This document shows positions 9,001 to 12,000 of a stretch of 25,080 nt of DNA, piece by piece. The position numbers were made by a program. Source of the stretch: Pseudomonadota bacterium (lineage in GTDB: Bacteria; Bdellovibrionota; FAC87; UBA2466); the NCBI GenBank assembly GCA_043767805.1, contig JAYUGC010000148.1, positions 1 through 25,080 of the forward strand. Reading direction: 5' to 3'. Position 1 is the stretch's first letter; each line of letters begins with the position of its first letter.

Positions 9001-12000
9001 TCCCTAAGAAGGACAGAGCCATTGTTTCCATGAACGCGGTACCGATACAGGCAGAACTCGTTGCATGCCCAAGTGGATGCTTCGGGCAACTTGCTCTGGG
9101 ACAACCAGACCGTCTGGAACCGCGTCCGCTAATCAAGCAAAAGCCGAAGGCACGAATTGCGGATGCTGCAGGATGCGCGCCTCAAAAGACGCGCGCGCCG
9201 TTTCGGCGAGGCCTTCCGGGAATTTCGCCTGGCTGCGTCCCCAGCGATCTAGCCATTCTCCGCCGAGTAGCGCCGTGCTGACGGGCTTTGCGTAAGCCGC
9301 CGTCGTCTCCGCCTTGGGGCCCGTGCCCACGCCTGGCGCCACGAAAAAGCCCGCGGAAAGAAGCGCGGCTCTCACCGCTGTCGATGCGGAGTAAGTAAAA
9401 AGCTCGGCTTGGCGGCCCATACAAGCGCGGTGGACTTTCGCGAACGTCTCCGGAGTCCAAAGCCCCGAATCGGTTTTCGCCGAGAATGGATCGTAGAAAA
9501 TAAAATCAGGAGGAGGCGCGCTTTCCAAGTAATCGAGGAAGTTTCCTTTTAAGAGCTCCCATTTTAGGAGACCGCCCGCGGCTTCCCACTTGCCTTGGCC
9601 CACGAGGCCATGAGGGGCGCCGTGACAGAGGTGAGGGAATTTCGTCGGGTGCTTGAGCGCGAGCTTCAGCGGATCGAGATCGCACTCGAAGCTCACGATT
9701 TTGAGAGGACGAATCAAGGGATTTTCTTTATATGCCGCTTCGAAGCAGCGAATGGTCGCCATGGCGTTCGTTGCGGCGCCGAGACCCACGTCCCAGATGA
9801 CGAGCGGGTCGCCGCTCTGTTTGAGCCGTTCGGAAAGCTTGGCCTGCTCGACGTAAAGGCGGTTCGCCTCTTCGGTCGGCTCGCTCACCGAGTGCATCAC
9901 TTCGCCCGAGCTCACTTGGCGGATGCTCGAAAAACCTCTGCCTGAGTCATGCACTTCGTAATCGCCGCGCTTTAAAGGTGGCTGTTTTTTCACGCGCGGC
10001 ACGGTGGCGCTGCTCCAGTTGTCGGTGCGAGAGAGCGCTTCCCGGCGGCCTTTGTAATACTCGGCAAAAGTTCCCGCAAGAATGTTCGCGCGGATTTCTC
10101 GCATCATGCGGTGAAAGAAAGTGAGGTTATGGAAAGAGAGCAGATGCCAGCCGAGCACTTCTCCCGTCTTATAGAGATGATGCAAATAGGCGCGCGAGTA
10201 CCGCGTGCAAGTCGTGCAGCCGCAATCCTCGTCCAGACTCTCCTCGGAAAACTTGTACTTCTCGCGCCGAAGCTGCAGGCGGCCTTCTTTAGTATAGGCG
10301 GTACCGCGCTGGGCGACTTGCGAGGGAAGGATGCAATCAAACATGTCGACGCCCCGGTGCACCGCTTCGAGAATGTCGATGGGAGTTCCCACCCCCATCA
10401 AATAGCGCGGCAAATCCCGGGGGAGGAGCGCCGCCGTCATTTCGCAGAAATCCTCGCGCTCCTGCTTAGTTTCGCCCACCGCGAGCCCTCCGATGGCGAA
10501 GCCGTCGAAAGGAAGCTGCGTCAGAAATTCCGCGCTCTGTTTTCTCAAATCGGGAAAGCACGCGCCTTGCACGATGGCGAACATCGACTGCGGCGAATCT
10601 CCCCGAGCCGCGAGACTTCGCTTCGCCCAGCGGTGGGTGACGCCGAGTGCCGCCAAGGCTTCTTCACGCCCCGCCGTGGAGGCAATGCATTGGTCGAGCA
10701 CCATCATGATGTCGCTGCCAATGGCCTTCTGCATCCCGATGCTGATCTCCGGCGAGAGCAGATGCATTTTGCCGTCGACGTAACTTTGAAAGCGCGCCCC
10801 TTCCTCGTTCATTTCGCGGGAATGAGGGAGCGAGAAAATCTGAAAGCCACCCGAGTCGGTCAATATGGGCCCGTCCCAGTTCATGAAGCGGTGGATGCCG
10901 CCGAACTGGCGGAACACTTCGGGACCGGGCCTGAGAAGCAGGTGATAGGTATTGGCGAGCAGCACCCGCGATCCCGCTTCCTTCAGGGAATCGATGGTCT
11001 GGCTTTTCACTGTTGCCTGGGTGCCGACCGGCATGAAGATGGGCGTTTGCACCTCACCATGGAGCGTCTTAAAGGTGGCGGCGCGGGCGCGGGAACCCTC
11101 GGCTTCCTTTGCTACGGTAAATCCCAGTCTCGGCATCGGAAGTGCATAGCATAACGGCCGAACGGAAGCCATTTGAGCGCCGAGGCAGTTGTGGGTTTTG
11201 AGCCCCGCCTAGGCTATAGCTAGGAAATAATTCGCTTACTTGACGAGGAAATCCCGATGAAAGCCGCCGTGGACCCCCACAAATACCACATCAGTTTATA
11301 TCTCTTTTTAGGCGCCCTTGCCTTGGCGGTGGGACTCAACATCGCCCTCATCGTTCCCTATATTCTGGCGCTTTTAATAGGCGTGATGCTCACAGTCCTG
11401 TCTCGGCCACTCTACCGCTATCTAAGGAAAAAGAAGTGGGGACCGAAATTAGCCGGAACTCTGGTGGTGGCTGCCATCCTGTTTCTCCTTATCGTTCCTG
11501 TCGGCGGATTTCTCGCGGTGGCGGTTAAGCAAGCCATCGCCTTCGGCCAGCAGCTCTCGGAGAAAGACGGGGGCTTTTCGATCAAATCGATCGCGGAAAA
11601 GATTAGTGAGATCGGTCCCGTTGGCGAGTTCATCGGCGGCCCCGAAAAGCTCGAGGCGAAGTTTCGCTCGAGCCTTCAAAACTCCGGCAAATTCCTGAGC
11701 GGTGCCGTGCTGGTGGGAGCCAAAAGGTTTCCGGACCTCGTGCTTCAGCTTTTCATCTCCCTCATTACGGTCTTTTTCCTGCTGCAAGACGGAGGCGCCT
11801 TCACCAAATGGCTAAGCGATAAGCTGCCGCTCGACAACGACGTGCAAAAGGAAGTCTCAAAAGCCTTTAAGGACACTTCCGTTTCGGTCGTCTGGTCGAC
11901 TCTCGCCGCGGCGGCGGTACAAGCCATTTTGATGTTCGCGGCCTTTCTTCTGCTTGGAGTGCCGGGGGCATTTCTCGCTGCGGGCGCGACGTTCATTTTC

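What a model noticed while it worked through the whole genome (the two positions that open the first line are those of the whole stretch)
9133..11136. A second tRNA-guanine transglycosylase fused to an MnmC-type amine N-methyltransferase domain
Beside a canonical tgt (g03642, in the tgt-yajC-secD operon) and a full queuosine pathway, the genome has a 667-aa paralogue (g03266) in which a complete Tgt domain is followed by a Methyltransf_30 domain, the fold that in MnmC methylates the aminomethyl group of nm5(s2)U34. Because preQ1, the base Tgt inserts at position 34, carries the same kind of aminomethyl group, I propose that the fusion inserts preQ1 and N-methylates it, giving 7-(methylaminomethyl)-7-deazaguanosine in RNA, a base so far known only from phage DNA. 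If true it is a new wobble-modification pathway, conserved at about 60% identity in several phyla yet annotated everywhere simply as Tgt.
Evidence so far: pfam.tsv: TGT 16-367 (E 2e-143, whole model), Methyltransf_30 542-616 (E 4e-13); the NCBIfam Tgt equivalog covers 53% of the protein. 50% id to Swiss-Prot Tgt over 357 aa; 48% to g03642, itself 57% identical to proteobacterial Tgt. QueA, QueC, QueF, QueG present; no other Methyltransf_30 and no MnmC FAD-domain protein in the tables; MnmE/MnmG present. Search with residues 380-667 alone: 2,245 hits among 7,999 scored; all 120 best (56-63% id) carry both PF01702 and PF05430 and are named Tgt (Oligoflexia, Bdellovibrionota, Opitutaceae/Lacunisphaera, Spirochaetes). 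Alignment of 9 fusions with g03642: catalytic Asp motifs and the Zn site are kept, but the fusion clade has its own signatures (LDQ [...]
(Added by a program. Inside this text positions count along the whole contig: contig position 1 is position 1 of the stretch shown here. "Call 12" and the like, gene names such as g00115 and contig names such as C1 are that model's own, and its searches are not shown. The text may have been shortened before it was handed on; [...] marks where a part breaks off. The agent that wrote the report below was given it as the finding of a first reader that could run no searches.)

Follow-up and report, generated by a model that had tools for sequence, protein, structure and literature searches.

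The report
Extra Tgt fused to MnmC2-type methylase
This gene encodes a second tRNA base-swapping enzyme joined to an amine methylase; it always accompanies the ordinary enzymes rather than replacing them, so it probably writes an RNA mark not yet described.

Summary
Window 9133-11136, on the minus strand, encodes a 667-aa protein with a complete bacterial Tgt domain (res 1-~372), a ~15-residue low-confidence linker, and a complete MnmC2-fold methyltransferase (res ~390-667). All catalytic, preQ1-pocket and Zn residues of Tgt are invariant in 76 of 76 fusions. The SAM loop, ribose Glu, catalytic Asp and RNA Lys of MnmC2 are invariant or nearly so in 79 aligned fusions.

The fusion is a single-origin, tightly conserved clade, found in at least 578 species genomes of several phyla. 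It is never a replacement: 59 of 60 fusion genomes also have a canonical Tgt, often in queA-tgt or tgt-yajC-secD operons. 14 of 59 have further stand-alone MnmC2-type genes. In 5 of those the extra gene is a divergent mnmL-mnmC2 pair, the ordinary mnm5U module. This weakens the dull reading.

The architecture is already listed in one preprint, without a proposed function. Decisive test: tRNA mass spectrometry.

The parts
9133..11136 (-). Whole CDS of the 667-aa Tgt-MnmC2-like fusion (stop codon 9133-9135)
   Evidence: Pfam and NCBIfam. Full-length AF2 model: mean pLDDT 89.1, pTM 0.60.
10021..11136 (-). Tgt domain, residues 1-372
   Evidence: TGT Pfam E 7.9e-143 and the Tgt equivalog over its cut-off. 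Best PDB sequence match is Tgt 2ash, E 4e-109. Catalytic and pocket residues are invariant in 76 of 76 fusions.
10303..10332 (-). Helix after the nucleophile Asp267 (residues 269-278, ILPSQVAQRG), carrying the clade-specific swaps V->I, R->Q, R->Q, N->R
   Evidence: In 22 canonical Tgts: V 22/22, R 22/22, R 22/22, N 20/22. In 76 fusions: I 76/76, Q 73/76, Q 68/76, R 76/76. [quoted passage not shown]
10207..10224 (-). Zn-site CxCxxC (residues 305-310); the fourth ligand is His336
   Evidence: C305, C307, C310 and H336 are invariant in 76 of 76 fusions.
9970..10020 (-). Linker, residues 373-389, basic and of low model confidence
   Evidence: pLDDT is below 50 for residues 375-386. The alignment is variable here except for D372 and the GDYE start of the next domain.
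9136..9969 (-). MnmC2-fold SAM-dependent methyltransferase domain with a C-terminal helical tail, residues 390-667
   Evidence: PF05430 48 bits against a cut-off of 22; NF033855 76-79 bits against a cut-off of 136. phmmer against 3vyw gives E 9.8e-8. Domain model: pLDDT 85, pTM 0.86. Foldseek top hits are 3vyw (E 2.1e-13, 284 columns), 2qy6 and 3ps9; the next fold class, spermidine synthases, starts at E 2.6e-7.
9481..9498 (-). Methyltransferase catalytic motif FYDPFS (residues 547-552); Asp549 aligns with E. coli MnmC Asp178
   Evidence: HMMER alignments to 3vyw, 3ps9 and 3awi. D549, F551 and S552 are invariant in 79 fusions. The role of Asp178 is taken from PMC3648344.
11137..11256 (.). Upstream intergenic region, shared with the divergent AI-2E transporter gene; no known RNA element found
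   Evidence: The Rfam scan of 8700-11500 at E<=1 gave 0 matches. Neighbouring genes.

Best explanation
The gene encodes an accessory, bifunctional RNA-modifying enzyme. An active bacterial-type tRNA-guanine transglycosylase is tethered by a short flexible basic linker to an active MnmC2-type, SAM-dependent methylase of aminomethyl groups.

The most likely mechanism has three steps. The Tgt half flips out a guanine in a U-G-U-like anticodon loop, position 34 of the Asp, Asn, His and Tyr tRNAs or a subset of them, and exchanges it for preQ1. The tethered methylase then captures the same nucleotide. It methylates the 7-aminomethyl nitrogen to give 7-(methylaminomethyl)-7-deazaguanosine. This diverts that tRNA from the QueA/QueG route, which the separate canonical Tgt serves.

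Shown here: the architecture, intact catalytic residues in both halves, a single origin, strong conservation, and co-existence with housekeeping Tgt and housekeeping MnmC2.

Inferred: the RNA target, the base inserted, the atom methylated, and the order of steps.
For: 1. Both halves look active. In 76 of 76 fusions, E. coli-numbered D89, S90, Q94, D143, C145, Q187, G213-E219, Y242, M244, D264 and the Zn ligands are invariant. In 79 aligned fusions the MnmC2 features are invariant or at least 90% conserved: W448-D-V-G-L-G, E484, D549, F551 and K608. These align with MnmC G66-G70, E101, D178 and K236.

2. The Tgt half is never the cell's only Tgt. 15 of 16 fusion-bearing relatives and 45 of 45 wider fusion genomes also have a ~380-aa canonical Tgt. 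That is 59 of 60 distinct genomes; the exception is a 77%-complete MAG. The canonical copy lies next to queA in at least 12 genomes by coordinates, or in tgt-yajC-secD. The fusion has no conserved neighbour: the best neighbour cluster occurs in 10 of 80 loci.

3. The methylase half is not simply the housekeeping MnmC2. 14 of 59 fusion genomes carry further PF05430 genes. In G012, G019, G023, G039 and G055 this is an Aquifex-like MnmC2 lying divergently beside a radical-SAM PF04055+PF16199 gene of the MnmL/YhcC type.

4. The fusion does not fill a gap left by a lost MnmC2. 0 of 11 non-fusion genomes of the same family, and 98 of 101 genomes of a verrucomicrobial order, have any PF05430.

5. Both domain trees show one fusion clade: SH-aLRT 100 for Tgt, on a stem of 1.06 substitutions per site with short inner branches, and 98 for the C-domain. 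The two trees share the same broad order of lineages across phyla.

6. The domains are joined in 80 of 80 genome loci (75 full length, 5 cut by a contig end) and in 71 of 80 metagenome loci.

7. The chemistry fits. MnmC2 methylates a CH2-NH2 group on C5 of U34. preQ1 carries the same group on C7 at the same tRNA position (established pathway knowledge). The other MnmC2 fusions named in the preprint, with MnmC1 and with MnmL, join consecutive steps on one nucleotide.

8. QueA is present in 80 of 80 genomes examined and QueF gives a strong hit in 51 of 59 fusion genomes, so preQ1 is available.
Against: - There are no mass-spectrometry or biochemical data.
- In the window's genome, and in 45 of 59 fusion genomes, the fusion is the only PF05430 protein. 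There it could be the nm5U34 methylase.
- The C-domain's closest characterised relative, Aquifex MnmC2, is a validated nm5s2U methylase. All shared active-site features are kept, and no enlargement of the pocket for a purine could be shown.
- There is no que-gene neighbourhood. The 11 of the 80 loci scanned, and the window, show no preQ1 riboswitch.
- AF2 gives pTM 0.60 and a disordered linker, so no fixed juxtaposition of the two active sites is predicted.
- The halves can exist apart. One clade of 7 stand-alone C-domains is nested inside the fusion clade, with no Tgt gene in the up to 4 kb of flank held on each side. One MAG has a fusion-clade Tgt that ends in the linker.
- QueF and QueA are about as common in genomes without the fusion (19 of 21 and 21 of 21), so the phylogenetic profile does not discriminate.
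Confidence: 0.45

Rival explanations
1. The dull reading. The C-domain is an ordinary MnmC2 that methylates nm5(s2)U34 of Lys, Glu, Gln, Arg, Gly and Leu tRNAs made by MnmEG through the ammonium route. The Tgt half is a second ordinary preQ1-inserting Tgt, or serves mainly as an anticodon-loop binding module. The two are fused only because both act on position 34.
For: - The fold and all catalytic motifs are those of MnmC2. Aquifex MnmC2 is the best structural and sequence match.
- The window genome has MnmE and MnmG and no other MnmC2, MnmC1, MnmL or MnmM.
- 45 of 59 fusion genomes have no other PF05430.
- tRNAs with UUU, UUC, UUG, UCC, UCU and UAA anticodons are present.
- MnmC2 is also found fused to unrelated partners, YhdJ and MqnD.
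- A stand-alone clade descended from fusions shows that the methylase can work without an attached Tgt.
Against: - It does not explain why a redundant Tgt keeps every catalytic, pocket and Zn residue in 76 of 76 sequences across phyla while a canonical Tgt is present in 59 of 60 genomes.
- Five fusion genomes already have an mnmL-mnmC2 pair, and 9 others have further MnmC2-type paralogues.
- Tgt substrates (G34-U35 tRNAs) and MnmC2 substrates (U34 tRNAs) are different molecules, so tethering gives no kinetic gain (pathway knowledge).
- Related genomes without the fusion mostly lack any MnmC2.
Confidence: 0.3
2. A changed RNA target. The remodelled ribose-34/phosphate-35 pocket lets the Tgt half exchange a guanine in a loop other than the canonical U33-G34-U35 of the four Q tRNAs: another tRNA, rRNA or an mRNA hairpin. 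The methylase then finishes the inserted base. The product chemistry is as in the best explanation, but at a new site.
For: - Clade-specific swaps occur at positions that are invariant in canonical Tgt: R270Q in 73/76, R273Q in 68/76, N274R in 76/76 and V266I in 76/76.
- These lie at or beside the pocket floor and helix alphaB.
- The Tgt clade sits on a long stem branch.
- E. coli Tgt needs only a short hairpin and is promiscuous.
Against: - The tRNA-stem binders identified in E. coli, K292 and R320, are Lys in 75-76 of 76 fusions.
- The rest of the active site is unchanged.
- The roles of R270, R273 and N274 in reading U35 are only recalled. They were not found in the papers read.
Confidence: 0.15
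3. A partly decayed or regulatory paralogue. One half is catalytically idle in vivo, for example a Tgt that only binds tRNA, or a methylase acting on free preQ1 or another small amine, and the fusion tunes Q levels.
For: - No expression or activity data.
- The linker is flexible.
- Rare split forms exist.
Against: Catalytic residues are invariant in both halves across at least 76 sequences from several phyla, and inner branches are short. This indicates purifying selection on both activities.
Confidence: 0.1

Closest known systems
Bacterial tRNA-guanine(34) transglycosylase Tgt (E. coli b0406; Z. mobilis and T. maritima structures)
   Same: - 44% identical to E. coli Tgt and 48% to the genome's own Tgt.
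- Scores over the NCBIfam equivalog cut-off.
- The three catalytic Asp, the preQ1 pocket (C145, V217, L215-A216, E219), the Zn site and the stem-binding Lys residues are all kept.
   Different: - Carries a 290-residue MnmC2-type domain.
- Forms its own clade on a long stem.
- Has R270Q, R273Q, N274R, V266I, G36A and E144Q.
- Is never next to queA or yajC-secD.
- Is always an extra copy.
Stand-alone MnmC2 (DUF752) of Aquifex aeolicus, PDB 3vyw, and the MnmC2 domain of E. coli MnmC (3ps9, 3awi, 2qy6)
   Same: - Best structural matches: Foldseek E 2e-13 to 5e-12. 284 of 288 residues align to 3vyw, including the C-terminal helices.
- The SAM loop, ribose-binding Glu, catalytic Asp and RNA-binding Lys are conserved.
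   Different: - Only 21-23% identical.
- Scores below the NCBIfam MnmC2 cut-off: 76-79 bits against 136.
- Fused to Tgt rather than to MnmC1 or MnmL.
- Belongs to a clade with the B1/B2 paralogues that is separate from the MnmL-linked and MnmC1-linked MnmC2 classes.
- DPFS.K and K.(E/D)TT motifs in place of DGFAP.KNP and KRE.
[quoted passage not shown]
   Same: Each fuses an MnmC2- or MnmM-type methylase to the enzyme that makes its aminomethyl substrate on the same nucleotide. The proposed logic for the Tgt fusion is the same.
   Different: The partner here produces a 7-deazaguanine rather than nm5U. Preprint 10.1101/2023.12.21.572861 lists the TGT fusion but assigns it no role. Its Supplemental data S3 could not be read.
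DpdM, the phage dPreQ1 methyltransferase that makes mdPreQ1 in DNA
   Same: It would make the same base chemistry, N-methylation of the aminomethyl group of preQ1 (PMC10516641).
   Different: DpdM is a DUF3109/YkgJ-like metal-cluster protein with a different fold. It acts on DNA and works with DpdA. The Pfam scan of P0001 found no such domain.
Eukaryotic QTRT1/QTRT2
   Same: Two Tgt paralogues in one cell. QTRT1 matches P0001 at E 4e-91.
   Different: QTRT2 has lost catalysis and pairs with QTRT1. Here both paralogues keep all catalytic residues. Heterodimer formation was not tested.

Membership tests
Bacterial Tgt (TIGR00430 equivalog / PF01702) | Profile score over the curated cut-off across the whole domain | tested here: met
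   TIGR00430: 446.2 bits against 306.75, profile positions 6-362 of 368. PF01702: 476 bits against 26.3.
Bacterial Tgt (TIGR00430 equivalog / PF01702) | Catalytic Asp triad (Ec D89, D143, nucleophile D264) and the preQ1 pocket (C145, Q187, GGLAVGE, Y242, M244) | tested here: met
   Invariant in 76 of 76 fusions. D264 as the covalent nucleophile is stated in PMC13416341. The other roles are recalled from the Z. mobilis literature.
Bacterial Tgt (TIGR00430 equivalog / PF01702) | Structural Zn site CxCxxC...H | tested here: met
   C305, C307, C310 and H336 are kept in 76 of 76 fusions.
Bacterial Tgt (TIGR00430 equivalog / PF01702) | [quoted passage not shown] | tested here: not met
   I, Q, Q and R in 76/76, 73/76, 68/76 and 76/76 fusions, against V, R, R and N in 22/22, 22/22, 22/22 and 20/22 canonical Tgts.
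Bacterial Tgt (TIGR00430 equivalog / PF01702) | Exchange of G34 for preQ1 in the GUN tRNAs, feeding QueA | not testable with these tools
   Needs a biochemical assay. The canonical copy, not the fusion, sits with queA or yajC-secD.
MnmC2 (NF033855 / PF05430) | Profile score over the curated cut-off | tested here: inconclusive
   PF05430: 48.4 bits against 22, met. NF033855: 76-79 bits against 136, not met. For comparison, E. coli MnmC scores 260, a split MnmC2 (L126) 247, and the local MnmL-linked MnmC2 genes only 77-92.
MnmC2 (NF033855 / PF05430) | MnmC2 fold | tested here: met
   The Foldseek top 9 hits are all MnmC2/MnmC chains, E 2e-13 to 1.4e-10. The next fold class starts at E 2.6e-7.
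MnmC2 (NF033855 / PF05430) | SAM-binding Gly loop, ribose Glu (E101), catalytic Asp (D178) and RNA Lys (K236) | tested here: met
   D449-V-G-L-G, E484, D549 and K608 align with them and are invariant or at least 90% conserved in 79 fusions. G179 and P182 are replaced by P550 and A553.
MnmC2 (NF033855 / PF05430) | Genomic link to the nm5U-producing step (fused or adjacent to MnmC1 or MnmL), or being the sole MnmC2 of the cell | tested here: inconclusive
   Never next to MnmC1 or MnmL. Sole PF05430 in 45 of 59 fusion genomes. In 5 genomes a separate mnmL-mnmC2 pair exists.
MnmC2 (NF033855 / PF05430) | Methylation of nm5(s2)U34 | not testable with these tools
   Needs an assay or tRNA mass spectrometry.
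DpdM (DUF3109) preQ1/dPreQ1 methylase | DUF3109 domain with the CxxxCxxCC metal motif | tested here: not met
   The Pfam scan at E<=0.1 found only TGT and Methyltransf_30. DpdM's family is taken from PMC10516641.

The most novel reading that the evidence does not exclude
The fusion writes a tRNA modification not yet catalogued, 7-(methylaminomethyl)-7-deazaguanosine (N-methyl-preQ1) at the wobble position. This would be a branch of the queuosine pathway that competes with QueA. It would be carried by a horizontally spread bifunctional enzyme in at least 578 species of Bdellovibrionota, Verrucomicrobiota, Desulfobacterota-like lineages, Binatia and others. Its remodelled phosphate-35 pocket may restrict it to a subset of tRNAs or to a new RNA site.
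Probability: 0.4. Interest if true: 0.85.

Novelty: new variant of a known kind. Interest (0 to 1): 0.7.

Why it matters
If the coupled reading is right, this is a new natural 7-deazaguanine derivative in RNA, and the first bacterial enzyme that both inserts and finishes a wobble base.

The base is so far known only from phage DNA, where an unrelated enzyme makes it. A full-text search of the held library found no paper describing it in tRNA.

The family is large and conserved, and every name that a source gives it is plain Tgt. Genome-based predictions of Q and mnm5U status in these phyla are therefore currently wrong or incomplete.

Cultured carriers exist among the Opitutaceae, so one nucleoside LC-MS run and two E. 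coli complementation tests would settle it.

Even the dull outcome would be useful. It would define a new way of supplying MnmC2, and it would still leave a strictly conserved second Tgt to be explained.

Tried and rejected
- Gene neighbourhood. In the window the neighbours are GH15, an AI-2E transporter, DUF1993 and two rRNA-type methylases; there are no que or mnm genes. Across 80 loci the commonest neighbour cluster occurs in 10 loci. Neighbours of the stand-alone derivatives (DUF2911, PIG-L) are also uninformative.
- Riboswitch search. Rfam at E<=1 on window 8700-11500 gave 0 matches. At gathering threshold, 11 of the 80 loci gave only one tRNA. The other 69 loci were not scanned.
- Phylogenetic profiles do not discriminate. 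Strong QueF hits: 51 of 59 fusion genomes against 19 of 21 non-fusion genomes. QueA: 80 of 80. MnmM: 0 of 41.
- tRNA gene set of the genome. Nothing unusual for this question. 41 tRNAs were found, and Asn, Tyr, Ile and Trp are missing from the draft.
- Structure. A pTM of 0.60 with a disordered linker argues against a fixed arrangement. No complex prediction was run, because no binding claim is made.
- Literature on which Tgt residues read U35 and phosphate 35. The papers reached gave only the pocket floor (V45, L68, V282) and the location of R286. The role of R289/N290 remains recalled.
- Earlier findings of this scan: nothing relevant.
- Sequencing runs: no RNA holder listed. No reads were laid.
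- Whether genomes with the stand-alone derivative still carry a fusion-type Tgt. The metagenome records are not searchable, and none of 401 sampled Verrucomicrobiota genomes had that form.
- The DPFS motif as a fusion signature was rejected. MnmL-linked MnmC2 genes of the same phylum also have D(P/A/V)FS.
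Full report
**The observation**

The ORF lies on the minus strand, 9133..11136, and encodes 667 aa (P0001). An in-frame ATG at 11172 is possible, but 79 aligned homologues begin at the MPRL/MSRL position.

- Pfam finds TGT at res 16-367 (E 7.9e-143) and Methyltransf_30 at res 542-616 (E 1.1e-12).
- NCBIfam puts the N-half over the Tgt equivalog cut-off (446 against 306.75 bits). The C-half scores below the MnmC2 cut-off (76 against 136 bits) over res 410-615.
- PDB sequence matches are Tgt chains (best 2ash, E 4e-109) and, for the C-half, Aquifex MnmC2 3vyw.
- The genome holds a second Tgt on contig C168 that is 48% identical. I confirmed that it sits in tgt-yajC-secD.
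- There is no other Methyltransf_30 over cut-off.
- MnmG, MnmE, QueA, QueG and QueF are present. MnmC1 (over cut-off), MnmL-type PF16199 and MnmM were not found.

Two corrections apply: the strand is minus, and the architecture is already listed in print.

**Anatomy**

AlphaFold2 with 79 sequences gives mean pLDDT 89.1 and pTM 0.60. Only residues 375-386 fall below pLDDT 50. The protein is therefore two well-folded domains on a short flexible tether, with no confident fixed orientation.

The C-domain modelled alone has pLDDT 85 and pTM 0.86. It matches Aquifex MnmC2 over 284 of its 288 residues, including the C-terminal helices (E 2.1e-13). The next hits are E. coli YfcK-N and MnmC. The next fold class, spermidine synthases, starts at E 2.6e-7.

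By alignment to the solved MnmC proteins, the SAM loop (D449-V-G-L-G), the ribose Glu (E484), the catalytic Asp (D549) and the RNA-binding Lys (K608) are all present. They are invariant or at least 90% conserved in 79 fusions.

**The Tgt half**

I aligned 76 fusion Tgt domains with 22 canonical Tgts: 21 from fusion-bearing genomes plus E. coli.

- Every catalytic, pocket and Zn residue is invariant in the fusions: E. coli D89, S90, Q94, D143, C145, Q187, G213-E219, Y242, M244, D264, C302, C304, C307 and H333. The pocket is therefore that of a preQ1-type bacterial Tgt.
- K292 and R320, shown by mutagenesis to hold the tRNA stem in E. coli (PMC13416341, section 7 read whole), are Lys in 75-76 of 76 fusions.
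- The fusion clade differs at positions that canonical Tgt never varies: V266I (76/76), R270Q (73/76), R273Q (68/76), N274R (76/76), G36A (76/76) and E144Q (72/76).
- The Z. mobilis equivalents place these near the substrate. [quoted passage not shown]
- The exact roles of R289 and N290 are recalled, not verified. The Z. mobilis numbers for the other catalytic residues are also recalled.

**Distribution**

The best 80 come from Opitutaceae and other Verrucomicrobiota, Oligoflexia/Bdellovibrionota, 'Deltaproteobacteria', Binatia, Syntrophobacter, Thermodesulfobacteriota and Riflebacteria.
- In all 80 the C-domain shares its ORF with a Tgt domain: 75 full length, 5 cut by contig ends.
- No neighbour is conserved.
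- G023 is in the same family as the window's genome, and it is the genome of locus L034, titled Pseudobdellovibrionaceae. The window organism is therefore a Bdellovibrionota-type bacterium.
- In an even sample of 401 Verrucomicrobiota genomes, 15 carry the fusion.

**Is either half the housekeeping enzyme?**

The Tgt half is not.
- 15 of 16 fusion-bearing relatives and 45 of 45 wider fusion genomes also have a ~380-aa canonical Tgt. That is 59 of 60 distinct genomes, since G023 and G057 are the same genome. The exception, G014, is 77% complete.
- The count of 45 includes G052, which is flagged as unpublished. Without it the count is 44 of 44.
- By coordinates, the canonical copy lies beside queA in at least 12 of these genomes.

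The methylase half gives a mixed picture.
- 45 of 59 fusion genomes have no other PF05430 protein. 14 do.
- The extra copies fall into two kinds. Class A is ~240 aa and Aquifex/MnmC2-like. Class B (B1 and B2) shares the fusion's insert and C-terminal tail.
- In G012, G019, G023, G039 and G055, all fusion-bearing, the class A gene lies divergently next to a radical-SAM gene with PF04055+PF16199. This is the YtqA/MnmL-YhcC type that converts cmnm5 to nm5 (PMC13228596, listing only).
- Those five genomes therefore already own a complete mnm5U module, and they keep the fusion as well.
- Genomes without the fusion rarely have any MnmC2: 0 of 11 in the window's family and 98 of 101 in a verrucomicrobial order have none.

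The fusion is thus an accessory trait. It is not the replacement of a lost housekeeping gene.

**Evolution**

- The fusion Tgt domains form one clade (SH-aLRT 100) on a stem of 1.06 substitutions per site with short inner branches. The canonical Tgts of the same genomes group by lineage.
- The fusion C-domains form one clade (SH-aLRT 98). In that tree it is sister to B1+B2 (88) and separate from class A (97) and from MnmC (99).
- In a larger tree the base is unresolved.
- Bdellovibrionota sequences branch first in both trees. This fits one fusion event there followed by horizontal spread of the whole gene.
- There are exceptions to obligate fusion. Seven stand-alone ~300-aa proteins (P0132 type, one on a 259-kb contig) form a clade (SH-aLRT 100) nested inside fusions. 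No Tgt gene lies in the up to 4 kb of flank held on each side.
- One 73%-complete MAG has a fusion-clade Tgt that stops in the linker.
- Of the 80 metagenome loci, 71 are fused, 7 are stand-alone and 2 are ambiguous.

**Weighing the explanations**

The dull reading needs a redundant Tgt to stay perfectly intact for no reason. It is also directly redundant in at least five genomes. It keeps real weight all the same. The domain is an MnmC2 by fold and motifs. Its nearest characterised relative methylates nm5s2U. In most carriers, including this genome, it is the only such enzyme.

The coupled reading explains more of the data. It accounts for two active halves, a near-obligate fusion, co-existence with both housekeeping systems, and the analogy with the MnmC1-MnmC2 and MnmL-MnmC2 fusions of consecutive steps. 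It also fits the chemical equivalence of the aminomethyl groups of nm5U and preQ1.

Nothing here shows the product. There is no que-gene context, no riboswitch, no fixed active-site geometry and no discriminating phylogenetic profile.

My odds:
- Coupled preQ1 insertion and methylation on the usual tRNAs: 0.45.
- The dull reading: 0.30.
- The same chemistry at a changed RNA site: 0.15.
- Other: 0.10.

**Literature**

- The MnmL preprint (passages read) lists TGT among four further MnmC2 fusion partners and says nothing more. Its supplement could not be opened.
- The phage paper (passages read) shows that mdPreQ1 in DNA is made by DpdM, a DUF3109 protein of an unrelated fold.
- A full-text search for N-methyl-preQ1 terms found only that paper and synthetic-chemistry papers.
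- A streptococcal tRNA-modification preprint holds nothing on this fusion.

**Verdict**

This is a real, widespread and strongly conserved bifunctional enzyme whose role is open. It is a new variant of known kinds, with a clear and cheap experimental test.

Noticed in passing
L106-L111 and similar loci (canonical Tgt genes of fusion-bearing 'Deltaproteobacteria'/Binatia-type genomes): 7 of 22 canonical Tgts have V/I, N and S/T in place of the three zinc-binding Cys (E. coli C302, C304, C307). They keep His333 and all three catalytic Asp. This looks like a natural zinc-less Tgt lineage.
   Followed up: no
L146 (G009:C41) and L147 (G009:C7), L145 (G009:C239): One 73%-complete MAG holds three related genes. 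A fusion-clade Tgt (72% identical) ends with a stop in the linker and is followed by an HflX-like gene. A divergent full fusion is 47% identical. A long-branch stand-alone C-domain-like gene is also present. This may be a split form or a mixed bin.
   Followed up: partly
L133-L141 (G041, G044, G045, G071, G073, G024, G014): Bdellovibrionota carry up to three MnmC2-like genes per genome, including the fusion. Classes B1 and B2 have no known role. B1 lies next to leuS in two genomes, and B2 next to an RlmF-type methylase in one. B2 is the closest of all classes to Aquifex MnmC2: 59 bits, against 45, 45 and 35.
   Followed up: partly
L149-L153, L155, L168 (metagenome contigs): A clade of stand-alone ~300-aa methylases descended from fusions. 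They lie beside DUF2911 and PIG-L genes. At least one (P0132) is annotated as queuine tRNA-ribosyltransferase although it has no Tgt domain.
   Followed up: partly
G490, G501, G528 (Verrucomicrobiota genomes): Weaker relatives of the C-domain (35-39% identical) sit in open frames of 571-635 aa that are not Tgt-sized fusions. These may be other fusion partners.
   Followed up: no
window 12879-14057 (+) and 14061-15068 (-): Two SAM-dependent RNA-methylase-like genes lie 1.7 kb from the fusion: an MTS/RsmC-like gene and a Methyltrans_SAM/RlmI-like gene. They are not conserved next to it elsewhere.
   Followed up: partly
window 23113-25062 (-), 15140-19245 (+): A copper amine oxidase with N2/N3 domains, and an Omp85/TamB-like gene pair. 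Both are ordinary annotations.
   Followed up: no
G000 whole genome: ARAGORN finds 41 tRNAs, including an Ala-AGC gene. No Asn, Tyr, Ile or Trp tRNA is present in this 204-contig draft.
   Followed up: no
L148 (G020:C55, contig end): The contig ends inside a fusion-like N-terminus (62% identical over 34 aa). G020, counted here as non-fusion, probably carries the fusion.
   Followed up: partly
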